Positions 1 through 30,000 are shown, counted from the whole stretch's first letter. The stretch is DNA of 31,633 nt, filler included, from an uncultured virus (IMG/VR IMGVR_UViG_2061766007_004010) (4 parts of one record of this genome joined end to end with filler, not necessarily neighbours in it); one strand, 5' to 3'. Numbers and translations are program-made. The notes: a model not told the origin generated them from the sequence alone.

Positions 1-395
1 TCTTGCCGAGGCGTTCCATTTCGGCCAGGTCGTCCCCGGCCCTTACCATCTTGCGGGCGAAGTCGCACGCCGTGGCTATCAGCCGCGGGCAGTCGTCGCC
101 GAACATCCTGTATGCGCGGTCGTAGATTTCCCTGCCCTTGATGTCGACGTTCCGTAGCTTGCAGTGCAGGCCGAAGCCCAAAATCTCGTAATACTTGAGG
201 GAGTACCGCTTCTCGTAAGTGTCCATGAAGTCGGTGAGCTCAGTGAACTCTTCCGGGACCATCTTCCTGGAATCCTCCGGGAACATCATGATGTCGGGGT
301 CGAAGGTGCCGAGCAGGCTCTTCTCGGAAAGTCCGTGGAACAGACGCTGGACGGCGAGGAATTCCGGCCCCTTGAGCTTCAGCTTGAACCCGTTC
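1..395 (-). CDS. T4 Rnl1-type RNA ligase, C-terminal fragment (allele)
   Basis: Reverse strand reads NGFKLKLKGPEFLAVQRLFHGLSEKSLLGTFDPD..., overlapping the end of the ligase fragments at 2680-3070. It stays open to the window edge and is not in the supplied ORF track. Confidence 0.75.
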
Positions 396-588
396 NNNNN
401 NNNNNNNNNNNNNNNNNNNNNNNNNNNNNNNNNNNNNNNNNNNNNNNNNNNNNNNNNNNNNNNNNNNNNNNNNNNNNNNNNNNNNNNNNNNNNNNNNNNN
501 NNNNNNNNNNNNNNNNNNNNNNNNNNNNNNNNNNNNNNNNNNNNNNNNNNNNNNNNNNNNNNNNNNNNNNNNNNNNNNNNNNNNNNNN

Positions 589-738
589 TTCGTCAGCGAT
601 AATCTCGAACAGGTAGGTCAGTCCGGGCACCATGTGCGTCTGCACCTTGTTCTCTATCAGCCATCCGTTCGCCCAGGCCCCCTGCCACGCGGTGAACGAG
701 CCGGAAGTGGTGACCATGAGCTCCCCGTCGACTATGCC
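589..738 (-). CDS. T4 Rnl1-type RNA ligase, internal fragment (allele)
   Basis: GIVDGELMVTTSGSFTAWQGAWANGWLIENKVQTHMVPGLTYLFEIIADE bridges the + strand fragments ending at 2325/2656 and starting at 2680. Confidence 0.8.
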
Positions 739-748
739 NNNNNNNNNN

Positions 749-1066
749 AATGGCGTCCGGCTTCGGCCTGGTGACGTCGACCGTTACAGTTATGTCGTTC
801 CCGGCAATATCACGGAAAATCACCGCCTTTCCGGCCGTGGTGGTGGCGACCTGCACCACCGACAGCGAGTCCTTTCCCTGCACCGAGTGCTGCCCGGCGG
901 TAGCGCCCGGATGGTAAATCATCTTGTGGTGGGTGGGGCACAGCGGGATGGTCACGTCCTTGTTCAGTGTGACGCCGAGTTCCTTCGGATGGATGTGGTG
1001 GAACTCTATGAGCGACCTGTCGTCGGTCTCGTAATTGCAGTTGGGGAAAACACAGCGGTACTTCAT
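749..1066 (-). CDS. HNH endonuclease-like Zn-finger protein, N-terminal part
   Basis: CVFPNC...EFHHIHP...IPLCPTHHKMIY matches the CxxC...HH...LCxxHH pattern. Truncated by a gap; the second allele start is at 1613-1643 (+). Confidence 0.7.
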
Positions 1067-1093: not shown

Positions 1094-1109
1094 TTTTTTG
1101 CTATATTTG
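1094..1109 (+). promoter_or_regulatory. TTTTTTGCTATATTTG promoter motif (TAnnTTTG-type), 5 nt before ATG
   Basis: The same motif recurs at five independent loci, always upstream of a gene start. The allele copy is at 1570-1585 (-). Confidence 0.7.
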
Positions 1110-1114
1110 ACACG

Positions 1115-1564: not shown

Positions 1565-1653
1565 CATGCCAAATATAGCAAAAAATGGACGGTTTGGGCA
1601 TAGTTTCGTGTCATGAAGTACCGCTGTGTTTTCCCCAACTGCANNNNNNNNNN

Positions 1654-1916
1654 ATTACCGGCGGTCCGGAGATGCTCAGGAAACTGTACAGGTTCGAGGA
1701 GACCGACAGTATCGACACACAGATGGAATTTATCGCGAAATGCCGCGAAAGCAGGGCAAAAGGAAAGAAATAATGAACAAGCTACCNNNNNNNNNNGTCA
1801 CAGGCGGGCCGGAGATGCTCAGGAAGCTGTACAGGTTCGAGGAGACCGACAGTATCGACTCGCAGATGGAATTTATCGTGAAATGCCGCGAAAGCAGGGC
1901 AAAAGGAAAGAAATAA
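1654..1916 (+). CDS. C-terminus of a hypothetical protein upstream of the RNA ligase (two alleles: 1654-1773 and 1797-1916)
   Basis: ...TGGPEMLRKLYRFEETDSID(T/S)QMEFI(A/V)KCRESRAKGKK*. Its stop overlaps the ligase ATG (TAATG) in both alleles. Confidence 0.65.
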
Positions 1917-3070
1917 TGAACAAGCTACCACTTTTGGCGGACTACCTGGCTCGTGCCGAGGGTCCGGACCTCATCAAGGCGGTGTCGCCTGACGGGAAAT
2001 ACGTCAAGTTCAAGTACACCGATACGACAATCTTCAACGGACGCTGGGACGAGATTACGCTGAATGCCCGCGGGCACGTGTTCCGCCTGTCCGACGGGGA
2101 ATGTGTCCTCCGCCCGTGGTCCAAGTTCTTCAACTTTTCCGAGCTGTATTCCGAGACCGGGCAGCCGACCAACGTACACAAGATTCTCTCCGGGATTCCC
2201 GGGCTCGAGCCGAAGTTCGGCCTGGACGACCCGCACGTCGCAACCGACAAGCTAGACGGCTCCCTCTGCATCGCCGGCATAGTCGACGGGGAGCTCATGG
2301 TCACCACTTCCGGCTCGTTCACCGCNNNNNNNNNNAAAGTTCAAGTACACCGATACGGCAATCTTCAACGGGCACTGGGACGTGATTACACTGAATGCCC
2401 GCGGGCACGTGTTCCGACTGTCCGACGGGGAATGCGTTCTCCGCCCCTGGTCCAAGTTCTTCAACTTTTCCGAGCTGTATTCCGAGACAGGGCAGCCGAC
2501 CAACGTACACCAGATTCTCTCCGGGATTCCCGGGCTCGAGCCGAAGTTCGGCCTGGACGACCCGCATGTAGCAACCGACAAGCTCGACGGCTCCCTCTGC
2601 ATAGCAGGCATAGTCGACGGGGAGCTCATGGTCACCACTTCCGGCTCGTTCACCGCNNNNNNNNNNNNNNNNNNNNNNTATGGTACCCGGACTGACTTAC
2701 CTGTTCGAGATTATAGCTGACGAGGACCTGCACCCGATACGCTACGACTATGAAGGATGCGTGCTCACCGGTATAATCGACAATGCTACCGGCGTCGAGC
2801 AGCCCTATGCCGAGCTTCAGCGGTTCGCCGCCGAGGCCGGCATCCGAGTTACCCAGCAGGTAATCCTCAACTCCTTCGAGGAGACCCTGGAATACGTCAA
2901 GTCCCTCCCGGCAAACAAGGAAGGGCTCGTCGTAACCTATCTCGAGAACGGGTTCAAGCTGAAGCTCAAGGGCCCGGAATTCCTGGCCGTCCAGCNNNNN
3001 NNNNNGGTAACCTATCTCGGGAACGGGTTCAAGCTGAAGCTCAAGGGGCCGGAATTCCTCGCCGTCCAGC
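1916..3070 (+). CDS. T4 Rnl1 (RnlA)-family RNA ligase, fragmented (1916-2325, 2336-2656, 2680-2995, 3006-3070)
   Basis: FKYT...W...NARGHVF...RPWSKFFN, motif I TDKLDGSL, TSGSF, TYLFEII, motif IV EGLVV and motif V KLKLKG. This is the Rnl1 motif set in order. Confidence 0.9.
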
Positions 3071-4114: not shown

Positions 4115-4642
4115 CGGCGCCGTTCAAGAACTTCTGGGCTCTCCCCGGAGGTTTCGCGGAACCCCGCGAGGACATCGAGCAGGTCGCAGTGCGCAAGCTC
4201 AAGGAAAAGGCCAGTATCGAAATCTTCCCCTCCCAGGTGAAGCACATCGGCGTATACACCCCGGACGACCCCAGGGCCACCGCGAAGGAAGGACACTGGG
4301 CGTATGANNNNNNNNNNCGTTCGCAAACTCAAGAAAGAGGTCAGTATCGAAATCTTCCCGGCCCAGGTGAAGCACGTCGGCGTATATACCCCGGACGACC
4401 CCAGGGCCACCGCGAAGGAAGGACACTGGGCGTATGACGTTGGCCTTGCCGTAGGCATAGATGCAATCGCTATCCCTGCCGTCAAGGCCGGCGACGATGC
4501 AGTCGAGGCCGAATGGGTTCCGATGGATGACGCGCTGGAAGCGAACCTCGCGTTCCACCACAGCAAGATTCTCAAGGATTTCCACAGCCGTTACCCCAAT
4601 GGCCTTCCCGGGCCGTACGGCATCACCACGATAGCGCTCTAG
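4115..4642 (+). CDS. Nudix domain with degenerate Nudix box (alleles 4115-4307 and 4318-4642); C-terminal domain of the NadD-like fusion
   Basis: APFKNFWALPGGF, DPR, AGDDAVEAEW and LAFHHSKIL are ADP-ribose pyrophosphatase/NrtR-like motifs. The box reads RKLKEKASI or RKLKKEVSI instead of REUxEExGU. Confidence 0.85.
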
Positions 4643-4650
4643 GAGGAAGG

Positions 4651-5628
4651 ATGCAGAAGTTTCTAGTATGCCCCGCGGTAGGCGGCGCCTCGATATCGTT
4701 CGCCGCAGTCAAGTACCTCATCAGGGAATGCGGCGACGGCATCGACCCGCTGTACCGCTANNNNNNNNNNCAGGATGCAGAAGTTTCTAGTATGCCCCGC
4801 GGTAGGCGGCGCCGCGATATCGTTCGCCGCAGTAAAGTATCTCATCAGGGAATGCGGCGACGGCCTCGACCCGCTGTACCGCTACATGAACGACCATCCC
4901 GGGGAACACGTTTCCGAATCAGGGGGCAAGGTCGGCTTTCCCGGCGAAGGCCTGTACAGCCCGCTCCTTACCGAGTGGTGGAGGCTCTTCTCCAGCCGGA
5001 GGATAACGCACGGGCAGAAACTGACATTCGACGACCTGGTCAGCGATACGGCAACGCTCTCCTTCCTGTGGGGAGAGTTTGCAGGAATCCGCGGCATGCT
5101 CGTACCGTTCATCGAGCGCCTTGACGGGCACTACNNNNNNNNNNATGGTCAGCGATACGACAACGCTCGCCTTCCTGTGGGGCGAGTTTGCAAGAATCCG
5201 CGGCATGCTCGTACCGTTCATCGAGCGCCTTGACGGGCACTACGCGATGTTCGACGTCATGAACGACAAGACCCCGCTGAGGATAGTCGAGGTTCCGGAC
5301 GGGTACTACTGCGGGGTGACCGAGGATTCAGAGACCGGCTGCGAGTTCGTGGAGGAATACCCCAGGATTTGGCACGCCAGGTCCGACGACGAGTACATGG
5401 CCATCGCCGCCGTGNNNNNNNNNNACCGGACGGGTACTACTGCGGGGTGACCGAGGATTCCGAGACCGGCTGCGAGTTCGTGGAGGAATATCCCCGGATT
5501 TGGCACGCCAGGTCCGACGACGAGTACATGGCCATCGCCGCCGTGAAGCGGTTCGTCGCCCACGACGCGTCGAAGGGGGACTGGTACCAGGAACTGAATG
5601 TGTACGACCTCAGTACCGGAGGCTGCGG
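4651..5628 (+). CDS. Phage hypothetical protein, fragmented into four overlapping allele pieces
   Basis: AGGAGG SD then MQKFLVCPAVGG.... The LRIVEVPDG...GCEFVEEYPRIW segment resembles a common phage hypothetical family (from memory). Confidence 0.65.
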
Positions 5629-5638
5629 NNNNNNNNNN

Positions 5639-5796
5639 GGCCAACGGGATGTACAACCAGACGACCCCATTGACGATGGAAATGGAAACCGGTGCCGTAG
5701 TCCAGAACTATGACCCGGACAAGTATCCGAAATGCTCAGTGACAGCAACCGTCGTAGTCTACAGCAATAACATGGTGCTCCTTGTAAAGCGCAAGG
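5639..5796 (+). CDS. Junction fragment linking the NadD-like and Nudix domains
   Basis: ANGMYNQ...YDPDKYPKCSVTATVVVYSNNMVLLVKRK has a NadD-type GxY ending followed, with no stop, by the first Nudix strands. Confidence 0.75.
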
Positions 5797-5821
5797 NNNN
5801 NNNNNNGAATCTACCTCATGG

Positions 5822-5846
5822 AATCCCGCCTCCGGGCGGGATTTTT
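5822..5846 (+). terminator. Intrinsic terminator overlapping the promoter motif
   Basis: AATCCCGCC/GGCGGGATT stem followed by a T run. Confidence 0.7.
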
Positions 5847-5856
5847 GCTATATTTG
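5842..5856 (+). promoter_or_regulatory. TTTTTGCTATATTTG promoter motif, 4 nt before ATG
   Basis: Recurrent motif. Confidence 0.7.
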
Positions 5857-5860
5857 GGAT

Positions 5861-6600
5861 ATGAACAATGCAGATAATTTTAACCAAGCGAATGCAGACA
5901 ATTTTAACCTGGCGATTGAGTTAACGAAGCAGAAGCTTAAATTGATGTCGAATCTCCACGAGGCCGACAAGGTATATGTCATGTACGGGGAATTCGACCC
6001 GTTCACTGCCCGCCACGAGGCTATCCTTCGTGAACTGCTTCTGCAGGCAACCATGGCCGAAGTGAAGTCCGATGGCCGGCGCAAGGAAGCCATCGTCATG
6101 GTCGTGGAGGACAAGCCGAGCTATTCCGGCGCAACCGCCTTGAGCCAGCGTCTTCGCATGGCTGAACTGGCCGCATACCACCAGACATGCATCAAGGTAT
6201 TCGAAACGATGGCGGACTACGTCTTTGTCGTGCCGAAGAAAGGTTCCCTGGAGGAAACCATAACGGAATCTCTCGGTCTTGTCCTTGGCAAGACATTCAT
6301 CGTAATGGACGCCGCACAGTGGAACAACCAGCTCAACCATATCGCCATCAACGGAAAGACAACCGTGACCTACATGCATGAAATGAGCGATACTCTGATA
6401 AATGAATCACGCTTCATCGTATTCAGAAGCGGTTCGGAAGAGGTCAAGCCCGGACCCTCCAACGTAAAACGGTCAGTCATGACGGTTTCCAGTGCAGTGG
6501 TGCCCCTGGTGTACGAAGGCGACGTGAGACGGCACATGAAGTACAATCCACTGTATAACGGCACGGAAGTCCCGGCATATACCAGGGATTTCATCGCTAC
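5861..6600 (+). CDS. NadD/NMNAT-like (HIGH-superfamily) domain, degenerate; N-terminal part of the NadD-Nudix fusion
   Basis: VYVMYGEFDPFTARHEAIL (cf. GGtFDPxHxGH), RLRMAELA, FIVMDAAQW, FIVFR and VPAYTRDFI. The second allele is at 13530-14263. Confidence 0.75.
5867..5914 (+). repeat. 24-bp tandem duplication at the gene start
   Basis: AATGCAGATAATTTTAACCAAGCG / AATGCAGACAATTTTAACCTGGCG. Also present in the other allele (13533-13580). Confidence 0.85.
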
Positions 6601-6820
6601 NNNNNNNNNNNNNNNNNNNNNNNNNNNNNNNNNNNNNNNNNNNNNNNNNNNNNNNNNNNNNNNNNNNNNNNNNNNNNNNNNNNNNNNNNNNNNNNNNNNN
6701 NNNNNNNNNNNNNNNNNNNNNNNNNNNNNNNNNNNAGGCGCCGTTCAAGAACTTCTGGGCTCTCCCCGGAGGTTTCGCGGAACCCCNNNNNNNNNNAGCC
6801 AGGGCTGACTGGAAAAGCCT

Positions 6821-10327: not shown

Positions 10328-10356
10328 TTGACAGTGTGTGAATAAATTTGTAATTT
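10328..10356 (+). promoter_or_regulatory. Sigma70-like promoter
   Basis: TTGACA-17 nt-TAATTT in an AT-rich divergent intergenic region. A second TTGACA is at 10317-10322. Confidence 0.55.
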
Positions 10357-10403
10357 ACTGTGCAAACACATGGCAATGCCTTGCCGAACTAACAAGGAAT
10401 ACA

Positions 10404-11771
10404 ATGAGCAGGAAAGAAACCGCAGATTCCCGTAAGCTCCTGAAGCTCTTGGGAAAACCGACCCCAGACACCCGCTACAACGCAACCAACAACCCGGCCG
10501 TAATCAAGCTTCTCGACACGTACGACATGGACACCGACAGGGTGTGCCGCTGGTACGACGTACTGGTCTCCCTCGGGTGGGTGACCGAAGACTACGACGA
10601 ATTCGAGAAGAGCGTGAAGAAGACCGCCAAGAAACGGCTCGACTCCACCCGCACGGCCGCCAGAATCGTCAAGCAGAAGACCGCGAAGCTCCCGAAGCGC
10701 CCGGAATACGACGACGACCTGGTCAGCAAGGCAAACTCCGCCATGGACGACGGCATGCTCATCTCCATGCAGAAGGACCTGAACGCCGCCAAGAAGACAA
10801 TCAAGGAGATGCAGGCATCCGATTACGAGAAGCGCCGCATGATTGGTGAGCTCCGCGAGGCACTCGCGGACTGCACCCCGGACAGGTTCACCATCAAGTT
10901 CGAGAAAATCACCCCGAAGCACGGCAAGGGCAAGTTCTACAACATCCTCCCGCTTTCCGACATCCACTGGGGCGAGGTTGTGCGCTCCCACGACGTCAAC
11001 GGGCTGAACGAGTACAACTTCGAAATCTCCAAGCAGCGCCACATCGAGCTCTTCAAGAAGAACTACGAGTACGCACAGGCCTTCGGATGCGAGGAACTCG
11101 ACATCTTCATGCTCGGCGACATGTTCTCCGGCAACATCCACGACGAGCTCCGCGAGAACAACGAGGCACCGATTACCAAGTGCATCGCCCAATATTACAA
11201 ATTTATTACGGGCCTCATCGATGCCTACAAGGGGTGCTACAAGAAGGTACGCATCCACTGCGTGGTGGGCAACCACGCCCGCACCACCCAGAAGTACCAG
11301 TTCAAGGCCAAGGGTATCGAGAACTACGAATACATCCTGTACTCGTTCATCGAGAACAAGTACAATGATTCCAACGACAACGTGAACGTCATCTTCGGCG
11401 ATTCCACCGTACTGTTCACCAAGGTCGGCAACCAGACCTGGAAACTGGAACACGGCGACCGCTACAAGGGCGGCTCCGCCTTCGTCTCCCCGCTGTCGAC
11501 CACCGTCCGCGACAACTTCAAGGACCAGGCGATATTCGCGGCCATCGGCCAGAAGTTCGACGCGGTCATGATGGGACACTGGCACATCGGCGGCATCTGG
11601 TACCTCCCGGGGACCACCACGCCGGTCTACCTGAACCCGAGCCTCATCGGCCCCGGCGAGTACTCCGTGCACAACCTGCACAGCGCGTTCCCGGCTTCCA
11701 GCTTCAGCTTCATCACCGATGGCAACAAGGTCGTCGACCAGCGCCTAATCGACCTGTCCGGCATCAGATGA
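10404..11771 (+). CDS. Calcineurin-like metallophosphoesterase with N-terminal helical/coiled-coil extension
   Basis: SDIHWG, LGDMFSG, VGNHAR, EHGD and MGHWH motifs. The AAGGA SD supports a start at 10404, and there is strong C-ending codon bias. Confidence 0.85.
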   Translation: MSRKETADSRKLLKLLGKPTPDTRYNATNNPAVIKLLDTYDMDTDRVCRWYDVLVSLGWVTEDYDEFEKSVKKTAKKRLDSTRTAARIVKQKTAKLPKRPEYDDDLVSKANSAMDDGMLISMQKDLNAAKKTIKEMQASDYEKRRMIGELREALADCTPDRFTIKFEKITPKHGKGKFYNILPLSDIHWGEVVRSHDVNGLNEYNFEISKQRHIELFKKNYEYAQAFGCEELDIFMLGDMFSGNIHDELRENNEAPITKCIAQYYKFITGLIDAYKGCYKKVRIHCVVGNHARTTQKYQFKAKGIENYEYILYSFIENKYNDSNDNVNVIFGDSTVLFTKVGNQTWKLEHGDRYKGGSAFVSPLSTTVRDNFKDQAIFAAIGQKFDAVMMGHWHIGGIWYLPGTTTPVYLNPSLIGPGEYSVHNLHSAFPASSFSFITDGNKVVDQRLIDLSGIR

Positions 11772-12448: not shown

Positions 12449-13519
12449 AGCGAAGAAGGACGGGGAAAGCGACATCGACTGCATTGACCGTATCGCCAAG
12501 AAGATAGCCGACTCATACAAAGAGAAGTCGGCTTATGTCGCCGGCCTCATAGCCGAACAGGACGGAAAGGCCGAGAAGTACAGCAACCTGATAAAGACCT
12601 ATGCCGAACTCTGCTTGAAGGCAATCGCGTCCCGACTGTCAATAGCGCAGTATTCCATCCTGCTCCATGACATCTGCGTGGCATACCGCAAGCTCGTCCC
12701 GGGCGACCCGATAGACGGCCTGAAGGATTTGCACCTGTACAGGTCAATTGTAAACACCTTTACCGAGTCGACTGCCAAGGGTACCCTGGATGGCAACAAG
12801 TTGACGTTCAAGGTCGACCCGAGCCACATGAGCTGCGCGTTCAAGGATATGATGCTTCTGCATGGTTTTCCACCCGAGTGCCAGTCGGTTCTTGACTGCT
12901 TCGACAAGGACACCCGGGAAATCTCCCTGGTGCTGACCTGGGGAAAGGAGGACGCCGTTTTCAGGATAGAAGGTGTCGACGACCCCAAGAAATCACCGTA
13001 CGTCGAATANNNNNNNNNNCTGGCAGTCAATTTCAAGGATATGATGCTTCTGCATGGCTTTCCGCCCGAGTGCCAGTCGGTTCTTGACTGCATCGACAAG
13101 GACACCGGTGAAATCTCCCTGGTGCTGACCTGGGGAAAGGAGGACACCGTCTTCAGGATAGAAGGTGTCGACGACCCCAAGAAATCACCGTACGTCGAAN
13201 NNNNNNNNNACCCGGAGACCCGATAGACGGCCTGAAGGAACTGCACCTGTACAGGTCAATGGTGAATACCTTTGTATTGCCGGCCGAGAAAGGAACGATG
13301 GACGGTAACAAGGTGACGTTCAAGGTCGACCTGAGCAACATGGCAGTCAATTTCAAGGATGTGATGATGATGCATGGCTTTCCATCCGAGTGCCAGTCGG
13401 TTCTTGACTGCATCGACAAGGACACCAGTGAAATCTCCCTGGTGCTGACCTGGGGAAAGGAGGACACCATCTTCAGGATAGAAGGTGTCGACGACCCCAA
13501 GAAATCACCGTACGTCGAA
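12449..13519 (+). CDS. Hypothetical protein, C-terminal part, three alleles (12449-13009, 13020-13199, 13210-13519)
   Basis: The frame is open from the gap (AKKDGESDIDCIDRIAKK...) to ...DDPKKSPYVE. The frame is preserved among alleles. Confidence 0.65.
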
Positions 13520-13529
13520 NNNNNNNNNN

Positions 13530-14263
13530 CACAATGAAGATAATTTTAACCAAGCGATTGCAGACAATTTTAACCTAGCGATTGAGTTAACGAAACAGGA
13601 ACATGAAAAGATGCCGAAGCTCCACGAGGCAGACAAGGTATATGTCATGTACGGGGAATTCGACCCGTTCACTGCCCGTCACGAGGCTATCCTTCGTGAA
13701 CTGATTCTGCAGGCAACTATGGCTGAAGTCAAGTCAGATGGCAGGCGCAAGGTAGCCATAGTCATGGTCGTGGAGGACAAGCCGAGCTATTCCGGCGCGA
13801 CCGCATTGACCCACCGTCTTCGCATGGTTGAACTGGCCGCATACCACCAGACATGCCTCAAGGTATACGAAACGATGGCGGACTACGTCTTTGTCGTGCC
13901 GAAGAAGGGCTCCCTGGAGGAAACCATAACGGAATCTCTCGGTCTTAACCTTGGCAAGACATTCATCGTAATGGACGCTGCGCAGTGGAACAGCCAGCTC
14001 AGCCATATCGCCATCAACGGAAAGACAACCGTGACCTACATGCGTGAAATGAGCGATATGCTGATAAATGAATCGCGCTTCATTGTATTCAGAAGCGGTT
14101 CGGAAGAGGTCAAGCCCGGGCCCACAAACGTAAAACGGTCAATCATGACTGTGTCCAGTGCAGTAGTGCCCCTGGTGCACGAAGGCGACGTGAGACGGCA
14201 CATGAAGTACAATCCACTGTATAACGGAACGGAAGTCCCGGCATATACCAGGGATTTCATCGC
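13530..14263 (+). CDS. Second allele of the NadD-like domain
   Basis: Collinear with 5861-6600 and carries the same GEFDPFTARH motif. Confidence 0.75.
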
Positions 14264-14307: not shown

Positions 14308-14319
14308 TTAATTAATTAA
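14308..14319. other. Artificial six-frame-stop scaffold linker TTAATTAATTAA (also at 16146-16157 and 22200-22211)
   Basis: Identical palindromic 12-mer embedded in N runs three times. Confidence 0.95.
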
Positions 14320-16039: not shown

Positions 16040-16334
16040 TTCAGCCCCTTCCAACGACCGGGTGGTCGAGGCACTTTCCGTGGTAGATGTGGTCCGCCGT
16101 ANNNNNNNNNNNNNNNNNNNNNNNNNNNNNNNNNNNNNNNNNNNNTTAATTAATTAANNNNNNNNNNNNNNNNNNNNNNNNNNNNNNNNNNNNNNNNNNN
16201 NAGGGGAGGACGGGTTACTCGGGATGGAGTGCTTCTACGGGGGAATCCCTATCAGGACTACCCCGATAATGGACATGGACGGGGTGAGCCACATAGAGCA
16301 CCCGCGCCCGTCGAACAGGTACGANNNNNNNNNN

Positions 16335-16470
16335 GACGGTCCTCGATGGGAAGGACGAACACTCCACGCGTGTCCACGTCGGACGTCTCGGTAGCAAGGC
16401 CGAACGCCTGGCTGCCGACGACGGCGTCCATGATAATCCATCCGGTTCTCTTCAATTCATCTACCGTCAT
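16335..16470 (-). CDS. RlaP/YcgL-type nucleotidyltransferase, N-terminus
   Basis: MTVDELKRTG...VVGSQAFGLATETSDVDTRGVF has the Pol-beta GS...DxD signature. Confidence 0.85.
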
Positions 16471-16955
16471 TTCTTAATCTCCAGTTCTTCAACAGTTGAC
16501 AGCGGAAGATACGATATTGTAAACTTGTATGTTTGCTTATGCGAACTCGGGTCCTGACTGACGAACGAATGGATAAGGAACGGGAATTTTTCATGGTCAT
16601 CGCCAATCGGATGAGGGTTATGGTCTAGGAACGGGCCGTTTCCCTGGTCAATCATGCCTACTTCCCAGTCGCATTCCTTCATTAGCTCGTCCATGAGAAC
16701 TTCGTAGAGCTTGGCGCGTGTAATTTCCTTCCAGTATTCGGAGTCCGGGAAGATGACGCGCTGCGCCTTGATGACCGTCGTGAGGTCGAGCTTGGACAGT
16801 GCCAATGCTGCCGTACGGTATACCTGCTCGTGCTTGACTGGATATTTTGCCTGAGCGGGCGCCAGTTCGGTGACCTTAACGCCTTTCATCGGGTCTACAT
16901 AATTCGGAGCTTCCATGATATCATCCTCTGTGCGCACGTCGGCAAACGGGTCTTC
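16467..16955 (-). CDS. C-terminal part of the hypothetical protein starting at 20562
   Basis: Overlaps 19707-19811 (EDPFADVRTEDD...). Its stop overlaps the nucleotidyltransferase ATG. Confidence 0.7.
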   Translation of the reverse strand, partial: EDPFADVRTEDDIMEAPNYVDPMKGVKVTELAPAQAKYPVKHEQVYRTAALALSKLDLTTVIKAQRVIFPDSEYWKEITRAKLYEVLMDELMKECDWEVGMIDQGNGPFLDHNPHPIGDDHEKFPFLIHSFVSQDPSSHKQTYKFTISYLPLSTVEELEIKK

Positions 16956-16965
16956 NNNNNNNNNN

Positions 16966-18282
16966 CTGAAGAGAACCGGCTGGATTATCATGGACGCCGT
17001 CGTCGGCAGCCAGGCGTTTGGCCTTGCTACCGAGACGTCCGACGTGGACACGCGTGGCGTGTTCGTTCTCCCCATCGAGGACCGTTTGTCCTACAATGCA
17101 ATCGACCAGGTGGCCGACGAGAAGAACAACCATGTCTACTGGGAGCTCAAGAAGTTCCTCCAGCTCCTTCGCGACGGCAACCCGTCCGCTCTCGAGCTGC
17201 TCAACTCGCCGAAGCGCTGCATACTGCAGGGCGAGGAGTTCTTCGANNNNNNNNNNGTCGGATACGACGCCGTAGGCCCAGCGCCATTCGTGCTCGTCGG
17301 CGGCAATCTCGCACCTGTCGAGCGGGACGTTTTCCCAGTAGAGCGCATATGTGTCGGTAACGTGGTCGATTGCTGCAATGGCGTAGTACTTCGGCTCGTC
17401 CTTGCACTCGTAAGGACGCTTCTTCACCCATTCCTTGAACGGGACGGCCAGGTTGCCGTCAACCACGTAGCAGTAGTCGAGCACCTTGGGAGGTTCCTCG
17501 GGCTGCGGGTTGAAAATCTTCTTGTTCAGGCCGTATGCCCTGGAAAGCTGGCTCTTGGCGTACTCCAAGAACGACTTGCAGCAGGCCGGGGTAATCCACA
17601 CGTCCTTCGGAATCATCTCGAAGAACTCCTCGCCCTGCAGTATGCAGCGCTTCGGCGAGTTGAGCAGNNNNNNNNNNATATGCCCTGGAAAGCTGGCTCT
17701 TGGCGTACTCCAGGAACGACTTGCAGCAGGCCGGGGTAATCCACACGTCCTTCGGAATCATTTCGAAGAACTCCTCGCCCTGCAGTATGCAGCGCTTCGG
17801 CGAGTTGAGCAGNNNNNNNNNNGCAGGTGGGCATCCTGTTCTTCAACAAGAACGCCTACTCGCACGACTGTGCCGAGCACACCAAGTACTGGAAATGGGT
17901 AAAGGACAGAAACGAGAGCCGGTACGAGGAAACAATCAAGCACGGCCAGGGATACGACGCAAAGAATACCATGCACTGCATCAGGCTGCTGATGACGGCG
18001 AAGGACATCGCGGAAAGAGGAACTGTTACCGTCGACCGGACGGCAGACCGCGAGTATCTCCTGTCAATCAAGCAGGGAAAGTTCACCTATGACGAGATGA
18101 TGGAACAGAGCGACAAGCTCGTCGCCGAAGTAACCGAGGCATTCAAGAACTCTACCTTCCTCAAGCCCGTCATTTCCCATGAAGAACTTGACCAGCTATT
18201 CACCAGCCTCCTGTTGTCCTTGCATGACAAGTTCAACCGTTTAATCAAGTCGAACATGGAGTTCGACGAAGAGGAAAGCTAG
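16966..18282 (+). CDS. RlaP/YcgL-type (PF10127-like) nucleotidyltransferase, fragmented in mixed orientation (16966-17246 +, 17257-17667 -, 17678-17812 -, 17823-18282 +)
   Basis: GSQAFGL..SDVDTRGVF, WELKKFLQLL..GNPSALELL, F..YA.SQL, YDAKNTMHCIRLL and LLSIKQG motifs. Confidence 0.88.
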
Positions 18283-18320: not shown

Positions 18321-18333
18321 TTTGCTATATTTG
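18321..18333 (+). promoter_or_regulatory. TTTGCTATATTTG promoter motif with an ~80-nt leader
   Basis: Recurrent motif. A GAGG SD precedes the ATG at 18417. Confidence 0.7.
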
Positions 18334-18416
18334 AACTAGGCTAAATCCCGTTCATTTCGTAGCGTAAAATCTCCGAGCAGCAACTTGGGTGGACAAAGCC
18401 AAGAGGAAATTGAATA

Positions 18417-20562: not shown

Positions 20563-20566
20563 GCTG

Positions 20567-20578
20567 CAAATATAGCAA
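20567..20578 (-). promoter_or_regulatory. TTGCTATATTTG promoter motif, 4 nt before ATG
   Basis: Recurrent motif that fills the 17-nt intergenic gap, with no SD. Confidence 0.7.
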
Positions 20579-22155: not shown

Positions 22156-22255
22156 NNNNNNNNNNNNNNNNNNNNNNNNNNNNNNNNNNNNNNNNNNNNT
22201 TAATTAATTAANNNNNNNNNNNNNNNNNNNNNNNNNNNNNNNNNNNNNNNNNNNN

Positions 22256-24467
22256 TGAACTTCCGGGAGCCCCGGCGAACCTCTCAATTCCTACGACCAC
22301 GTGGCCTTCCACCGGATACATCGACGACATCATCATTTCCGATAACAACGGTGTCGCCTACATCGACGTCCCGGACGGCGAGGGCACCTACGACATCTAC
22401 GTCCACAACATCCATACGGGCGTGGGCGGTACGAACGGTTCCAAGATTTACGTCCGCATGCAGGACGGGGGCCGTCTCACCCGTATCTTCGTGGAAAGCC
22501 TCGAAATCGGNNNNNNNNNNTATCATCTCTGCGAACGACGGGGTCGCCTACATCGACGTCCCTGACGGCGAGGGCACCTACGACATCTACGTCCACAACA
22601 TCCATACGGGCGTGGGCGGTACCAATGGTTCCAAGATTTACGTCCGCATGCAGGACGGTGGACGCCTTACCAGAATCTTCGTGGAGAGCCTCGAAATCGG
22701 CAACCACACGACGTTCAACGTGATNNNNNNNNNNAGGCGGTACGAACGGTTCCAAGATTTACGTCCGCATGCAAGACGGGGGCCGTCTCACCCGTATCTT
22801 CGTGGAGAGCCTCGAAATCGGTAACCACACGACGTTCAACGTGATATACAGGACCGAGGACGGCGATGAAATCCAGACCCAGAAGCAGTACCGCGGCAAC
22901 GTGATGTTCTATTCCAACAACAACATCACGTTCGACAATACCGACAACGTGCCCATCCAGGGTTCATTCATCACTACCGGCAAGATTTTCCTGAAGTGCA
23001 ACCTGGACTTCGCCGGGCAGCTCCTGGCCAACCAGCTCGAAATCGGCGACGACTTCAAGGGCGAGAACTTCCGCTTCGTCCCGTTCGACCCTGATACGCT
23101 CGACATCGACCCGGAACTCAACAAGGACGGCGGCCTCCGCGAGAACGACTCCACCGTAGTCATCCCAATCAAGCTGAGCGACACCGCCACCGTAGACGTA
23201 TACTTCAACTACTGCTTCGACCTCCGCGACGGCGTGACGGTTGACGACTTCAACCTGGTGACGGACTTCCCCATCTGCGGCACCGAGACCAAGACCGTGG
23301 TAATCCCGACCGGCAAGAAGGTCCCGACCACCCCGATTACGGTCAACGTGAAGAAGGACACCATCACCGAGCCCTCCGACTACCTGGTCATGAAGATTTC
23401 CATCGAGTCCGGCGCGGTCCTCCCGAACAACAAGACCGACGGCGAGCTCAGAATCCGCATCATCGACGCCGACTACACTCCCCGCCCGCTGTTCGACTCC
23501 ACCGCTGTGTACTCCGAGAAGGAAAACTACACCGGCAAGGTGGACAGCATCAGGGTGGTCAACAAGACCGACTCCACCAGGTTCGTCCTGGATTCCGCGT
23601 ACGCGGGCCGCTACTCGCTGGATTCAGTCACCGGCGTGCTTACCCTGCTTACCCCGGTGGACTACGAGACGACCCCGGTGGATACCATCAAGGTCACCCT
23701 CAAGGACACCGCCGGGTATTCAGTAACCGGCCTCATCCCGGTCTCCGTAATCGACCTCAACGAGGCCCCGGAAATCACGACCGCGAAGGTCGAGTTCAGC
23801 GAGAACCTCCCCGTCCCGGCGAAAATCGGCAAGATTGAGTGGACCGACCAGGACATCCCGGCTTCCTTCCGCGACAACGCCCTGGAAGTCCTCGTCCCGG
23901 CCGACGGCATTACCGTCCAGGCAGACGGCTCCGTCTACACTACAAAGGTGTTTGACTACGAAACCGACCCGAAGGAAATCGAGCTTACCGTCCGCGTGTA
24001 CGACAAGGGCAACCCGGCACTTGCCGATACAGCCACCGTGAAATTCGTCCTCTCCGATATCGACGAGAGCCCGAGCGCCCGTGATACCACGTTCCATGTC
24101 GCCGAGAACACCACCGGTCCCGTAGGAACGCTCGTAGCCAATGACCCCGAAGGCAAGGGTCTGACCTACACCATCGTCGGCGATACGCACGGCTTCACCG
24201 TCGACAGCACCGGCNNNNNNNNNNTACCACCGGTCCCGTAGGAACGCTCGTAGCCAAGGACCCGGAAGGCAATGGACTTGCCTACACCATCGTCGGCGAT
24301 ACGCACGGCTTCACCGTCGACAGCACCGGCAAGATTGCCAATACCGTTCCGTTCGACTACGAGACAGAGAAGACCGCCACTATTACGGTCAAGGTTTCCG
24401 ACGGGACCAAGACCTCCACCGCTACGGTCAAGATTGTCGTCGACAACGTGAACGAGCCCGTCCACGC
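22256..24467 (+). CDS. Large secreted cadherin-repeat protein, middle fragments
   Basis: A beta-rich domain and a Calx-beta-like segment are followed by cadherin repeats (DYE, DxNExP, ENxP, AxDPEG). Confidence 0.85.
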
Positions 24468-24908: not shown

Positions 24909-24924
24909 TTTTTTGCTATATTTG
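24909..24924 (+). promoter_or_regulatory. TTTTTTGCTATATTTG promoter motif preceded by a terminator-like hairpin
   Basis: Recurrent motif. A CGGGAC/GTCCCG stem lies just upstream and an AAGGA SD downstream. Confidence 0.7.
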
Positions 24925-24964
24925 GATTACGTACATCATAAAACACTCACAAGGAAACACAACA

Positions 24965-26873: not shown

Positions 26874-29800
26874 CTACTTTTCCTTCGGACGCTTGTACCC
26901 GAAGATTGTCATGTCGTCGTCCTTCTTGACGGTCCTGTCACCCTTGACCTGTTCCTTGTAGTCGCAACGGTGCTTCGCCACCGACTTGCTGAACAGCTTG
27001 GTGATGTAGCTGGAAGTGCCGAGGGACTTCCCGTTCTTCGCCTTGACGTTCCCGTCGCGGTCGGCGAGCCAGTCGACGACCATCTGGACGGTACCGGCGT
27101 CGGTAGCCTTGGCCTGGTCGTTTAGCGTGTATTCGACCGTGAAGTCGTTAACGTAGTTCGCCTGTGTGGTGTATACCCAAAGGTGCATCGTATACTTCAC
27201 GTCGTACAGCGGGATGTTGAGCCCGTTCTTGGCGTAGTCGGCCTTGAACTCGTCGGTGCAGTGCTCCTCGACGTACTTGTCCACCGGGATTCCCTTGGTG
27301 GATGCCCCAACGATGTTCCCGCGGTCGTCCACCGGAATCATGCCGTTCTTGACGATGTCGTCCAACGTGGCCAGGCCTCCCGTGGCGGAAACGCTGGGAA
27401 GCGCGATGTCCACCTTGAAGCCGACGCCGATGGTCTCCGGGAGCTTCCCGTCCTTCGGGTCGGTGAACTTCACCTTGACCGGGTTTTTCGGGTTGTAGTG
27501 GTGGCCGTCGCCGTAGTATTCCTCGACCTTGTCGCGGTCAATCTCGGTTACCGGGTGGATGATGGAAACCTCGATGTCCTTGGCTTCCTTCATGATTACC
27601 AGTACCGTGTCGATGGCGACGTTGCCGGCCTTGTCCACGTAGCGGCGGATGACCATGTTCGGGCCCTTCTCGAGCCTCTGGAGGGTGAGGGTGTCCTGGA
27701 CTTCCCCGTTGACCGTCCACTTTACCGGGATGGCGTTTGTATGGAAGATGGTGCCCTTCACGGGGTCGAGAATCTCGAGCTTGGGCGGGATGTCGTCGAA
27801 GACTATCGCCACCTCGGCGGATGCGCGGTTCCCGAAGTCGTCGGTATAGTCGTAGCGGACCGTATAGCCGATGTTGCCTTCCTCGTTCTTCACTACCTTC
27901 TTCTTGTCGTCCAGTTCGTAGGAAACTGTCGTGCAGGAATCCACATTGTATGAAACGCGGTAGTTGCCGATGCGTTCGCCGGTCATGCCGTCGGTCGTGT
28001 ACGTGATGGTCACGTCCTTGCCGCCTTCCTTGACCGTATAGGTTACGGTCTGCAGGGTATCTACCGGTTCCATCGTCTTGAGGTCGACAATCCTGGACAG
28101 GGTGACCTTGACGCCGTCGACCGTGACGACTTCCTTGACCTCCGCCTTGCCATTGCCAATCGGGGTCACTTCCGCCTTGCTCTCGTCAATGATGTAGCCG
28201 TAGTCCTTGACGGAATAGGGCTTCACGGAAACCGTATCCAGCTTCACGCCGATGTCGAAGCTCTTCTCGGTCTTCTGGACAGTATCCTTGATGGTAACGC
28301 GAAGGTCATTGTCCTTCCTGTTCACGTAGATGCCGTCATCGGCAGTCTCCTCGATGGTGATGTAGTCGATTAGCGCGTCGGTGTTATTGGCGTTGGACAG
28401 GATTACCACGGGAGGCACGTCGTTGAAGATGAACACCACCTGGTCGCAGGAGGTCTTCCTCTCGTTGCACACCTTTACGGTCGTGTCNNNNNNNNNNGTT
28501 GCCAATCGGGGTCACTTCCGCCTTGCTCTCGTCAATGATGTAGCTGTAGTCCTTGACGGAAGAGGGCTTCACGGAAACCGTATCCAGCTTCACGCCGATG
28601 TCGAAGCTCTTCNNNNNNNNNNTCCCCGGTGAGGGCGTCGGTGCGGTAGGAAACCGTGATTTCCTTCCCGCCTTCCTTCACGGTGTAGGTGACGGTCTGG
28701 AGGGTGTCCAGCGGCTCCATGGTCTTCAGGTCGAAGATTCGGGTGATTGCGACGTCGATACCGTCGACCATGACCACTTCCCGGACTTCCGCCATGCCGT
28801 TGCCTATCGGGGTCACATCGGCCTTCGTCTCGTCGATGACGTAATTGTATTCCTTCACGGAGGAAGGCTTTATGGCTACGGTGTCGAGCTTCACAGACAC
28901 GTCGAAGGACTTCTCTGTATTGGAGACGGTGTCGCGCACGGTGACCCGGAGGTCGTTGTCCTTGCGGTTGACGTAGNNNNNNNNNNNNNNNNNNNNNNNN
29001 GATGGTGATGAAGTCGATTGTGCCGGTGGTGCTGCGGGCGTTGGTCAGCGTGACCACCGGGGGAACGTCGTTGAACAGGAACACCACCTGGTCGCAGGAG
29101 GTATTCTTCCCGTTGCACACCTTGACGGTGGTGTCCTTGCGGATTTTCACGTCGAGCGTGTCGAAGTCGCACTTGCCGGATTCGCAGATGCGGTAGTCGA
29201 TTGTATGGTCCGGGACGTTGGTACGGACGGTGTCGCGCTTGGGCTCGCCGTCNNNNNNNNNNAGGCACGTCGTTGAAGATGAACACAACCTGGTCGCAGG
29301 AGGTCTTCATCTCGTTGCANNNNNNNNNNCCGTGACGCGGAGGTCGTTGTCCTTCCTGTTCACGTAGATGCCGTCGTCGGCAGCTTCCTCGATTGTAATG
29401 TAGTCAATCATGGCGTCGGTGTTCTTGGCATTGGAGAGAATCACGACTGGCGGGACATCGTTGAAGATGAACACAACCTGGTCGCAGGAGGTCTTCCTCT
29501 CGTTGCACACCTTTACGGTCGTGTCCTTCCTGATGGTGACGCCCAGGGTGTCGAACACGCACTTGCCGGACTCGCAAATCCTGTAGTCGATAGTATGGTC
29601 CGGGACGTTGGTACGGACGGTGTCGCGCTTAGGCTCGCCGTCGACCTCGGTAATTTCCGTCTTTTCCGGTACGTCGAGAACCTTGATTACGACAGTAGCC
29701 GTATCGCTGAACTCGCCGTCGGTCACGATGACCTGGACTGTATCGCCGGCGGTCTTCTCGTAGTCGAACGGCTCCTTCACCGAGATTTCCCCGGTGGAGT

Positions 29801-29990: not shown

Positions 29991-30000
29991 NNNNNNNNNN

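What the first reader, a model, noticed from the sequence alone, without database searches (positions are those of the whole stretch)
4115..6786. NadD-like/Nudix fusion with both catalytic signatures disabled: candidate NAD/ADP-ribose sensor or sponge
Seen: the fragments join in frame. The allele ending ...TTCATCGC at 14263 abuts GGCCAACGGG at 5639, giving FIAANGMY, then VLLVKRK and APFKNFWALPGG. The Nudix box has Lys in place of metal-binding Glu, and differently in the two alleles (RKLKEKASI versus RKLKKEVSI; consensus REUxEExGU). The (H/T)xGH motif is TARH and the ISST motif appears as YEGD. The frame and the ligand-pocket motifs (DPR, AGDDA, LAFxH) are kept in the allele fragments that cover them. 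Known: NadM-Nudix fusions are NAD-salvage enzymes, NrtR uses an often inactive Nudix domain to bind ADP-ribose, and phages counter NAD-depleting defences (Thoeris, SIR2, TIR) by NAD reconstitution or sponges. Inference: this is a maintained pseudo-enzyme, under its own promoter, that binds NAD-derived molecules. No DNA-binding domain is visible.
Basis: partly seen in the sequence, partly recalled or inferred. Interest (0 to 1): 0.72.

Follow-up and report, generated by a model that had tools for sequence, protein, structure and literature searches.

The report
Degenerate NadD–Nudix fusion of a jumbo phage
The scattered fragments are one gene of a cattle-gut jumbo phage: a fusion of an NAD-synthesis enzyme and an ADP-ribose-cleaving enzyme that has lost key catalytic residues and its partner genes yet is still conserved, so it has probably been re-purposed, though a role as a sensor or sponge is unproven.

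Summary
The sequence facts hold. The fragments tile one ORF of about 430 codons. They map without a gap onto uninterrupted genes in four metagenome loci, and independent contigs bridge both joins. The N-terminal half has a NadD fold. The C-terminal half is an ADP-ribose-type Nudix domain of the NadM-Nudix/NrtR kind.

The family was found only on large viral or metagenome contigs. Canonical relatives keep TxGH, ISST and RExxEE, and sit beside pncB, an isochorismatase and sometimes nadE. That cluster is the known gut "NAD-jumbo phage" Preiss-Handler cluster (PMC11662467).

The window's subfamily is monophyletic. It has TARH, DAAQW and VYEGDVR instead, and lacks those neighbours in the held DNA. 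dN/dS is 0.12-0.55.

The Glu-to-Lys Nudix box is not a family trait. It occurs in the two window alleles and in P0007 only. 24 of 25 close database proteins and 4 of 4 close loci keep RELKEE. TARH still fits the NMNAT motif GxFxPx[H/T]xxH.

Verdict: a real, re-purposed or partly inactivated enzyme fusion, and a new variant of a known kind. The sponge or sensor reading is untested.

The parts
5822..5843 (+). Terminator-like hairpin (stems 5822-5830 and 5835-5843, loop TCCG) followed by a T run, ending the upstream gene
   Evidence: Read. The equivalent hairpin in L007 was found by the scan. Stems differ between the window, L007/L005/L006 and L010 by compensatory changes.
5846..5857 (+). Promoter-like box TGCTATATTTGG, ending 3 nt before the ATG at 5861
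   Evidence: 6 matches in the window (up to 1 mismatch) against 0.02 expected. TTGCTATATTTG is invariant in the 8 aligned upstream regions. It resembles the Bacteroidota -7 element TAnnTTTG; that motif is recalled, not tested.
5861..6600 (+). NadD-like N-terminal domain, allele A (246 codons plus 2 bases; GEFDPFTARH, VMDAAQW, VYEGDVRR)
   Evidence: AlphaFold model pLDDT 81.5. All listed Foldseek PDB hits (to rank 50) are NadD/NMNAT. PF01467 only E 0.068, below cut-off.
13530..14263 (+). NadD-like N-terminal domain, allele B (VHEGDVRR); runs to the end of a scaffold
   Evidence: dN/dS against allele A is 0.27 over 244 codons.
5639..5796 (+). Linker and first strands of the Nudix domain (ANGMYNQ...VLLVKRK)
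   Evidence: Maps to L006 5631-5788, directly after the N-terminal domain.
4115..4307 (+). Nudix box piece, allele 1 (GGFAEPREDIEQVAVRKLKEKASI)
   Evidence: PF00293 32.2 bits against cut-off 21.1. Codons. Maps to L006 5789-5981.
6736..6786 (+). Third short copy of the start of the Nudix box piece (APFKNFWALPGGFAEP)
4318..4642 (+). Nudix box allele 2 (RKLKKEVSI) and the C-terminal part of the Nudix domain (DPR, AGDDA, LAFHH), with stop TAG at 4640-4642
   Evidence: A contig of run X1 carries this allele and is continuous from the N-terminal domain into the next gene (record 8).
4651..5628 (+). Downstream gene of unknown function (MQKFLVCPAVGG...), in four overlapping variant fragments (4651-4760, 4775-5134, 5145-5414, 5425-5628). 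AGGAGG overlaps the fusion's stop codon, so it is probably co-transcribed.
   Evidence: It follows the fusion in L005-L008 and is present near it in L001, L002 and L004. No family hit.
12450..13519 (+). Upstream gene of unknown function (three overlapping variant fragments), the homologue of L007 8750-9886
   Evidence: No family hit.

Best explanation
The pieces are one gene of a cattle-gut jumbo phage. It is a fusion of a NadD-type (nicotinate-nucleotide adenylyltransferase) domain and an ADP-ribose-type Nudix domain. It descends from the nadD-Nudix gene of the pncB-nadD-nadE NAD-salvage cluster that related jumbo phages still carry.

In the window's subfamily the neighbouring pncB, isochorismatase, nadE and macro genes are gone from the locus. 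The adenylyltransferase half has exchanged three substrate or ATP motifs (TxGH->TARH, G-x-D-E-W->DAAQW, ISST->YEG) for new residues that are themselves conserved. That half is therefore most likely no longer an NAD-synthesis enzyme. It is probably a retained nucleotide-binding or regulatory module attached to the Nudix domain (inferred).

In most members the Nudix domain looks like a working ADP-ribose-type pyrophosphatase. In the two alleles of this window, two of the three metal-binding glutamates are lysines. This version therefore most likely binds but hardly cleaves its ligand (inferred from the NrtR/Slr1690 precedent).

It remains open whether that loss is a selected switch to pure binding or a recent loss-of-function variant in one phage population.
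For: One gene.

Phage origin:
- Only 5 representatives (4 of them real relatives) among 1.84 billion proteins.
- 4 loci on viral contigs of 116-355 kb.
- 13 metagenome loci.
- None in 185,579 prokaryote genomes.
- The window shares RNA ligase, RlaP and HNH genes at 51-72% identity with L001.
- Runs holding the stretch are mostly labelled bovine gut metagenomes.

Folds:
- N-terminal model: all listed Foldseek hits (to rank 50) are NadD/NMNAT.
- The family profile hits NadD chains at E 2e-8 to 1e-5.
- The full-length model of P0007 (95% identical to the window pieces) has pLDDT 85.9. Its top hits are NadM-Nudix 2r5w/2qjt/2qjo, then NrtR 3gz8.
- The Nudix profile hits 2fml, 3gz8, 2qjt and 2qjo.

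Ancestral module:
- In L001 the order is pncB (TIGR01514 over cut-off), unknown gene, fusion, isochorismatase, nadE, unknown gene, macro (weak DarG-like match), metallophosphoesterase, NADAR.
- pncB lies within the held DNA of 8 of 11 distinct canonical loci and 0 of 4 main-clade loci.

Motifs: 13 of 13 canonical sequences have [SA]ST..R and RE.xEE. All main-clade sequences have TARH and V[YH]EGDVR.

Tree: the motif-changed clade (18 rows) is monophyletic at 100/100 on a long branch of 1.09.

Selection: dN/dS is 0.15-0.46 in the N-terminal domain (9 pairs) and 0.12-0.55 in the Nudix part (14 pairs).

Precedent: in the closest Nudix subfamily, perturbed signatures go with loss of ADPRase activity and retained ADPR response. 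Slr1690 has kcat 1.4e-4 per s, raised 600-fold by restoring the box (PMC2330246, passages read).
Against: - No activity or binding was measured.
- GEFDPFTARH still fits the NMNAT ATP motif GxFxPx[H/T]xxH, and the Arg of ISSTxxR is kept. The N-terminal half could still be an adenylyltransferase with altered substrate handling.
- Some active Nudix enzymes have non-canonical boxes, e.g. RLx2AE in GDP-sugar hydrolases (PMC5389931, passages read).
- Absence of pncB and nadE is shown only for 2-21 kb of DNA held around four relatives. The rest of those contigs could not be searched, and no whole genome is held for the window. The host could also supply those steps.
- The Lys alleles are rare: 1 of 25 close database proteins. 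They were confirmed only in one sample's runs.
- dN/dS cannot isolate the branch after the Glu losses. The two window Nudix alleles overlap in only 39 codons.
- The tree has long branches and a midpoint root only.
Confidence: 0.5

Rival explanations
1. Selected pseudo-enzyme. Both halves are catalytically dead here, and the protein works as a sponge or sensor. It sequesters ADP-ribose-derived molecules (ADPR, cyclic ADPR isomers, NAD) made by host NADase or TIR defences.
For: - Two diverged alleles (dS 0.18) both carry Lys at the first Glu and a second Lys at different positions.
- Nudix-box degeneration also occurs in P0002 (RELKKE) and P0003/P0019 (RIMKDV), but in 0 of 13 canonical sequences.
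- The subgroup motifs DPR, AGDDA and LAFHH are kept.
- Neighbours include NADAR.
- Non-catalytic Nudix domains that bind NAD metabolites are known (PMC2330246; PMC5389931).
Against: - Nothing tests binding.
- 24 of 25 close proteins and 4 of 4 close loci keep the catalytic glutamates, so hydrolysis is the norm in this clade.
- The Lys alleles are not shown in more than one sample.
- No comparison with known phage sponges was made.
- A 48-kDa two-domain protein differs from the small oligomeric sponges described so far (recalled).
Confidence: 0.2
2. Ordinary enzyme family with a recent loss-of-function variant. The clade's job is ADP-ribose-type hydrolysis, with the NadD-like half as a structural or regulatory appendage. 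The window's Lys alleles would be neutral or mildly deleterious knock-outs segregating in one rumen phage population.
For: - RELKEE[AS][SG]I is present in nearly all close relatives.
- The Lys changes are single G->A transitions.
- They are found in one sample's contigs plus one database protein of unknown origin.
- Once the first Glu is lost, further changes in the box are expected to be free.
Against: - Two alleles that differ at dS 0.18 both carry box changes, so the lineage is not very young.
- The rest of the domain shows no stop, frameshift or excess of replacements against relatives (dN/dS 0.18-0.41 for the window pieces).
- P0002 and P0003/P0019 show long-lived proteins with degenerate boxes.
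Confidence: 0.25
3. Still a bifunctional enzyme. The changed motifs would reflect a shift of substrate (for example another nucleotide or mononucleotide), not loss of catalysis, in one or both halves.
For: - GxFxPxTxxH, the motif Arg, NP[LM]Y-G-T and Trp of DAAQW are kept.
- The new motifs are highly conserved.
- Variant Nudix boxes can be active by other mechanisms.
Against: - The hydroxyl residues of ISST are replaced by Tyr, Glu and Gly, with acidic residues in the place that contacts ATP phosphates in NMNATs. That role is taken from PMC5889475 and from recall.
- NadD models of NCBIfam no longer detect P0007, although they detect P0004 and L001 at about 3e-15.
- Lys for two metal-binding Glu is a charge reversal.
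- Pathway partners are lost from the locus.
Confidence: 0.15
4. Assembly artefact. The fusion or the Lys codons would be chimeras or errors of a fragmented, strain-mixed scaffold.
For: - The window is scrambled.
- The pieces are 51-794 bases long with 10-N gaps.
- P0001 is a truncated or chimeric relative.
Against: - More than 25 full-length natural homologues have the same architecture.
- Independent contigs bridge the joins and carry the G>A changes.
- No mutational bias was found.
Confidence: 0.02

Closest known systems
pncB-nadD-nadE (Preiss-Handler) clusters of gastrointestinal 'NAD-jumbo phages' (Li et al., Microbiome 2024, PMC11662467; abstract and passages read)
   Same: Same habitat and type of phage. 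The canonical relatives found here (L001/L010 and others) carry exactly such a cluster, with pncB, a NadD-type gene and nadE. The window's gene is a homologue of that nadD.
   Different: The passages read do not mention a Nudix fusion ('Nudix' occurs 0 times in the main text). In the window's clade pncB, isochorismatase and nadE are missing from the locus and the NadD motifs are changed. The supplementary tables were not read.
NadM-Nudix bifunctional NMN adenylyltransferase / ADP-ribose pyrophosphatase (Synechocystis 2QJO, Francisella 2QJT/2R5W; phage KVP40 Nmnat of NARP2)
   Same: Same domain order, and the best whole-chain structural matches. The Nudix domain belongs to the same subgroup. 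The phage NARP2 pathway uses such an Nmnat with Nampt to rebuild NAD (bioRxiv 10.1101/2024.02.11.579819, passages read).
   Different: The N-terminal half here is NadD-type, not NadM-type. The partner in relatives is pncB, not Nampt. ISST and two Nudix glutamates are lost in the window.
NrtR, Nudix-related transcriptional regulator (Shewanella 3GZ5/3GZ8; Rodionov et al. 2008, PMC2330246)
   Same: Closest Nudix sequences (E 3e-12, LAF[DH]H tail aligned). A perturbed Nudix box there goes with no ADPRase activity but an ADPR response.
   Different: No winged-helix DNA-binding domain; the protein ends 25 residues after LAFHH. It is fused to a NadD-like domain instead.
Phage nucleotide-signal sponges (Tad1, Tad2 and others; named from recall, one review seen only as a search listing)
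   Same: Only the proposed mode of action: binding without cleavage of ADPR-derived molecules.
   Different: No sequence or fold relation was tested or seen. Binding is unproven.

Membership tests
NadD / NMNAT (nicotinate-nucleotide adenylyltransferase) | Rossmann-like nucleotidyltransferase fold of NadD | tested here: met
   Model of window 5861-6598 (pLDDT 81.5). All listed Foldseek PDB hits (to rank 50) are NadD/NMNAT, TM 0.49-0.71 on the target.
NadD / NMNAT (nicotinate-nucleotide adenylyltransferase) | N-terminal ATP motif GxFxPx[H/T]xxH | tested here: met
   GEFDPFTARH in both alleles. Motif as given in PMC5889475. Sister phage proteins have TxGH or TVAH.
NadD / NMNAT (nicotinate-nucleotide adenylyltransferase) | C-terminal ATP motif ISSTxxR | tested here: not met
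   VYEGDVR / VHEGDVR; only the Arg is kept. 13 of 13 canonical relatives have [SA]ST..R.
NadD / NMNAT (nicotinate-nucleotide adenylyltransferase) | Curated family model over its cut-off | tested here: not met
   PF01467 scores 13.8 and 15.8 bits against cut-off 21. P0007 gives no NadD NCBIfam hit at E<=0.001. P0004 and L001 hit TIGR00482 at about 3e-15 but below its cut-off.
NadD / NMNAT (nicotinate-nucleotide adenylyltransferase) | Adenylyltransferase activity on NaMN or NMN | not testable with these tools
   Needs an enzyme assay.
Nudix hydrolase, ADP-ribose pyrophosphatase subgroup (NadM-Nudix / NrtR type) | Nudix fold and family model | tested here: met
   PF00293 scores 32.2 bits against cut-off 21.1 for 4117-4305. 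Profile hits to 2fml, 3gz8, 2qjt and 2qjo. Fold hits.
Nudix hydrolase, ADP-ribose pyrophosphatase subgroup (NadM-Nudix / NrtR type) | Nudix box GX5EX7REUXEEXGU with the three Glu of REUXEE | tested here: not met
   RKLKEKASI and RKLKKEVSI: one Glu of three is left, and Gly->Ser. G-x5-E-x7-R is kept. Close relatives have RELKEE.
Nudix hydrolase, ADP-ribose pyrophosphatase subgroup (NadM-Nudix / NrtR type) | Subgroup motifs downstream of the box (DPR, AGDDA, LAF[DH]H) | tested here: met
   Present in 4117-4305 and 4319-4639. They align to the same motifs of 2fml and 3gz8. Their role as ligand contacts was not checked here.
NrtR transcriptional regulator | C-terminal winged helix-turn-helix domain | tested here: not met
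   No residues for it. No such Pfam hit.
NadM-Nudix / NARP2 Nmnat | NadM-type (archaeal-type) adenylyltransferase domain, paired with Nampt | tested here: not met
   The N-terminal half is NadD-type. The PF04095 gene of relatives is pncB by TIGR01514. No such gene is in the window, which is only about 31 kb of a larger genome.
Preiss-Handler cluster of NAD-jumbo phages | pncB and nadE encoded next to the nadD gene | tested here: not met
   0 of 4 close loci (L005-L008, 2-21 kb held) and no hit in the window. 8 of 11 distinct canonical loci have pncB. The whole genomes could not be searched.
Phage signal sponges (Tad1/Tad2 type) | Homology or demonstrated sequestration of ADPR-derived signals | not tested
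   No comparison was run. Binding needs experiments.

The most novel reading that the evidence does not exclude
A jumbo phage has turned a bifunctional NAD-salvage enzyme into a two-pocket, non-catalytic binder. The NadD-like pocket would be closed to ATP by a new Arg-Glu pair (TARH with YEGD). The Nudix pocket would be stripped of its metal ligands by Glu->Lys. Together they would soak up or sense ADP-ribose-derived defence products or signals. That would be a new origin for phage counter-defence sponges, caught in the act with enzyme and binder alleles coexisting in nature.
Probability: 0.15. Interest if true: 0.75.

Novelty: new variant of a known kind. Interest (0 to 1): 0.42.

Why it matters
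Phage NAD-rebuilding pathways are a current topic in phage-bacterium conflict. This locus shows what happens to one of their enzymes when the pathway is dismantled. The fusion is kept, its synthetic half is remodelled on a long branch and then conserved, and its hydrolytic half loses catalytic glutamates at least twice. Natural pairs that differ mainly in the Nudix box (RELKEE against RKLKEK or RKLKKE, about 95% identical otherwise) make a ready-made experiment. They can show whether a phage Nudix domain can switch from cleaving to merely binding ADP-ribose-type molecules. If it is only a loss-of-function variant, the finding is an ordinary example of gene-cluster erosion in a jumbo phage.

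Tried and rejected
- Search for longer relatives with the N-terminal piece: none.
- blastn of 5807-6600 against 50,697 phage records: no match.
- Prokaryote genome scan: 27 pattern matches, none confirmed.
- Whole genome of the window: not held.
- Search of the rest of the L005 and L007 contigs for pncB: not held, so not searched. Absence of pncB and nadE elsewhere in those phages stays open.
The idea that Arg of TARH pairs with Glu of YEGD and fills the triphosphate site could not be tested.
- Earlier notes of this scan: nothing by place or by sequence.
- Protein Atlas for the downstream gene: no usable hit.
- Damage or hypermutation as the source of the G->A changes: rejected, since the spectrum against relatives is balanced.
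- NARP3 (PnuC plus NadR-like, PMC13464706, abstract and outline read): a different architecture, not relevant.
- Run X4 (another sample) has no informative contig over the Nudix box. The one piece there is 37 bases with 6 differences, so it says nothing about the Lys alleles elsewhere.
- My regular expression for the ISST group in the tree script matched nothing. The grouping by ISST was therefore read instead.
- No complex prediction was run.
Full report
WHAT THE WINDOW IS

The 31,633 bases are not one contiguous sequence. They contain 65 sequence fragments separated by N runs. Three 12-base TTAATTAATTAA spacers, each flanked by 44 N, mark joins between separate scaffolds. Many fragments are overlapping variants of the same stretch, and they are not in genomic order. 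Mapping onto contiguous relatives shows this directly. So the finding's 'alleles' are strain variants of one phage population collapsed into one scrambled scaffold set.

On the uninterrupted gene of locus L006 they lie end to end:
- window ..14263 -> ..5630
- 5639-5796 -> 5631-5788
- 4115-4307 -> 5789-5981
- 4318-4748 -> 5862-6293

L005, L007 and L008 give the same picture. Full-length homologues of 401-430 residues align to the pieces. No residue is missing at FIA|ANGMY, and one codon spans the KRK|APFKNFW join.

An independent assembly confirms this. A 1634-base contig of run X1 runs from inside the N-terminal domain across both join points, the Nudix box and the stop codon into the next gene. 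A 416-base contig of run X3 also crosses both joins (records 8 and 23). X1-X3 are one sample and may be the window's own source, so this checks the assembly, not independent occurrence.

The Lys codons are single G->A changes relative to four relatives. The general substitution spectrum is balanced.

WHAT THE TWO HALVES ARE

N-terminal half (246 residues, window 5861-6598):
- It gives only a sub-threshold PF01467 hit.
- Its AlphaFold model (pLDDT 81.5) matches only NadD/NMNAT chains in the Foldseek hits listed to rank 50.
- A profile of the family's N-terminal halves hits solved NadD chains at E 2e-8 to 1e-5.

C-terminal half:
- It is a Nudix domain (PF00293 over cut-off).
- By profile it is closest to 2fml, NrtR 3gz8/3gz5 and the NadM-Nudix enzymes 2qjt/2qjo. 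The AGDDA and LAF[DH]H stretches are aligned.

Whole protein:
- P0007 is a natural full-length protein 94-97% identical to the window pieces and has the same RKLKEKASI box.
- It folds with pLDDT 85.9.
- Its best whole-chain matches are the bifunctional NadM-Nudix enzymes.
- There is no further domain.

WHERE IT COMES FROM

The family is rare and phage-borne:
- Five representatives among 1.84 billion proteins, one of which is a spurious repeat protein.
- About 30 members at finer clustering.
- Four loci on IMG/VR contigs of 116-355 kb.
- Thirteen metagenome loci.
- None in 185,579 prokaryote genomes.

One contig (L001) is estimated 31% complete at 116 kb, so these are jumbo phages. The window shares RNA ligase, RlaP, HNH and other genes with L001 at 38-72% identity. 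It shares long stretches with L007 at about 95% DNA identity. Runs that hold the stretch are mostly labelled bovine gut metagenomes.

THE INFORMATIVE COMPARISON

The distant relatives are L001/L010, L002/L012, L003/L016, L004, L011/L014/L015/L017, P0004 and P0020.
- They have GGAFDPxTxGH (or TVAH), G-[AY]-D-E-W, [SA]ST..R and RE.xEE. The last two hold in 13 of 13 sequences.
- In L001 the gene lies in the order pncB (TIGR01514 over its cut-off), unknown gene, fusion, isochorismatase, nadE, unknown gene, macro domain (weak DarG-like match), metallophosphoesterase, NADAR.
- pncB is within the held DNA of 8 of 11 distinct canonical loci. The three without it are short or cut loci (L014, L015, L016). 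L009 and L013 duplicate L001 and L002.

This is the Preiss-Handler cluster reported for gastrointestinal 'NAD-jumbo phages' (PMC11662467, abstract and passages). The passages I read name pncB, nadD and nadE. The word Nudix does not occur in the main text. I did not read its supplements.

THE WINDOW'S SUBFAMILY

P0002, P0003/P0019 and the main clade (window, L005-L008, P0006-P0018, P0055-P0066) form one clade with 100/100 support. It sits on a long branch of 1.09 changes per column, sister to P0004/P0020 (midpoint root, long branches flagged by the tool).

In this clade the NadD motifs read TA[RKQ]H, DAAQW (main clade) and V-x-E-x-x-V-R. The main clade has V[YH]EGDVR without exception.

The synteny of L005-L007 is RNA ligase, unknown gene, fusion, unknown gene, metallophosphoesterase, NADAR, unknown gene, UDP-galactopyranose mutase. 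That is the L001 order minus pncB, isochorismatase, nadE and macro. In L007 an RRXRR-HNH endonuclease gene sits where pncB would be. The window itself has no match to those four genes, but it is only a fraction of a genome.

NCBIfam's NadD models still detect L001 and P0004 (about 3e-15, below cut-off). They no longer detect P0007.

SELECTION

Pairwise Nei-Gojobori dN/dS is 0.15-0.46 for the N-terminal domain (9 pairs; allele A against B 0.27 over 244 codons). It is 0.12-0.55 for the Nudix part (14 pairs, several of them short). The gene is not decaying, and the new motifs are among its most conserved stretches.

These estimates cover whole lineages. They cannot say what happened after the glutamates were lost. 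The two window Nudix alleles overlap in only 39 codons.

THE NUDIX BOX

- RELKEE[AS][SG]I is present in 24 of 25 main-clade database proteins. The exception is P0007. Three of them have the perfect RELKEEAGI.
- It is also present in 4 of 4 main-clade loci. L007 equals P0018.
- All 12 other members of P0007's own 90% cluster have RELKEE.

The Lys forms occur in the two window alleles, in P0007, and in contigs of three runs of one sample. The other sample laid (X4) had no informative contig over the box.

On the other hand, P0002 (RELKKE) and P0003/P0019 (RIMKDV) show that degenerate boxes persist in this clade. No canonical sequence has one. There were therefore at least two separate degenerations.

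In the closest Nudix subfamily a perturbed box goes with loss of ADPRase activity while ADPR is still sensed. Slr1690 has kcat 1.4e-4 per s, with a 600-fold gain on restoring the box, and syNrtR and soNrtR are inactive (PMC2330246, passages). Some active Nudix enzymes nevertheless have variant boxes (PMC5389931, passages).

THE N-TERMINAL MOTIFS

TARH by itself is not a defect. [quoted passage not shown] From recall, human NMNATs have T-N-M-H at this place.

The case for a changed site rests on three things:
- the loss of the ISST hydroxyls (Tyr-Glu-Gly instead);
- the loss of G-x-D in G-x-D-E-W;
- the failure of NadD models.

All three are relative to sister phage proteins that keep these features.

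A basic residue in TA[RK]H co-occurs with an acidic one in V-x-E. That suggests a salt bridge in the triphosphate site. But it is one evolutionary event, P0019 has Gln there, and I had no coordinates to measure it. It is an idea, not a result.

REGULATION

A hairpin with compensatory stem changes lies upstream, followed by a T run and the box TGCTATATTTGG, which ends 3 nt before the ATG. The arrangement is conserved in the window, L005, L006, L007 and L010. The box occurs 6 times in the window against 0.02 expected. It resembles the Bacteroidota -7 promoter element TAnnTTTG; that motif is recalled, and the host was not tested. The next gene starts 9 nt after the stop, with AGGAGG over the stop codon, so the two genes are probably co-transcribed.

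CONCLUSION

Shown:
- It is one gene.
- It has a NadD-fold plus ADPR-type Nudix architecture.
- It is of jumbo-phage origin.
- It descends from the nadD-Nudix gene of a pncB-nadD-nadE cluster.
- Motif replacement is clade-wide in the NadD half.
- The partner genes are lost from the locus.
- It is under purifying selection.
- Glu->Lys changes in the Nudix box are allele-specific.

Inferred:
- The NadD half no longer makes NaAD or NAD (my odds about 0.65).
- The Lys alleles hardly hydrolyse (about 0.8).
- The protein acts by binding ADPR-type ligands as a selected function (about 0.2-0.35).

The sponge or sensor idea remains a hypothesis. It now has good natural controls for a test.

Noticed in passing
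window 1-31633 (spacers at 14308-14319, 16146-16157, 22200-22211): The window is a chain of at least four scaffolds joined by TTAATTAATTAA spacers. Inside them, short variant fragments separated by 10 N are out of genomic order and sometimes inverted relative to the contiguous relative L007.
   Followed up: partly
window 1099-1110, 1569-1580(-), 5846-5857, 18323-18334, 20566-20577(-), 24914-24925: The promoter-like box TGCTATATTTGG is repeated six times (0.02 expected). At 5857 and 20566 it ends 3 nt before an ATG, which suggests leaderless or near-leaderless transcripts. It resembles the Bacteroidota -7 element (recalled).
   Followed up: partly
window 53-738(-), 1799-2994(+), 16336-18279, 767-1066(-): An RNA-repair gene set is present in several variant copies: a T4 Rnl1-like RNA ligase, an RlaP-family nucleotidyltransferase and an HNH protein. 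The set is syntenic with L001 and L005-L007.
   Followed up: partly
L001 6860-15964 (and L010): A dense NAD/ADP-ribose gene block in a jumbo phage: pncB, an unknown 416-aa gene, NadD-Nudix with a 140-residue N-terminal extension, isochorismatase (a candidate nicotinamidase), nadE, an unknown 281-aa gene, a macro domain (weak DarG-like match), a metallophosphoesterase and NADAR.
   Followed up: partly
L007 7451-8716: An RRXRR-HNH endonuclease gene occupies the slot between the RNA ligase and the unknown upstream gene, where L001 has pncB. L005 and L006 have nothing there.
   Followed up: no
window 4651-5628; L007 11219-12085: A conserved gene of unknown function (about 280-290 aa, MQKFL...GGA...) directly follows the fusion in the main clade and lies near it in canonical relatives. 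It has no Pfam, PHROG, NCBIfam or Atlas hit.
   Followed up: partly
window 22736-24214, 26877-28487(-), 29331-31559: Large proteins with cadherin and bacterial Ig-like repeats, again present as several variant fragments. They may be phage surface or adhesion proteins.
   Followed up: no
window 10338-11771: A 477-aa ORF with only a weak metallophosphoesterase match (E 7.5e-4). It was not found among the L001 genes compared.
   Followed up: no
P0001 (209 aa): This database protein is 93% identical to the window's N-terminal domain over its first 122 residues, then switches to unrelated sequence. It is probably a chimeric or frameshifted contig.
   Followed up: no
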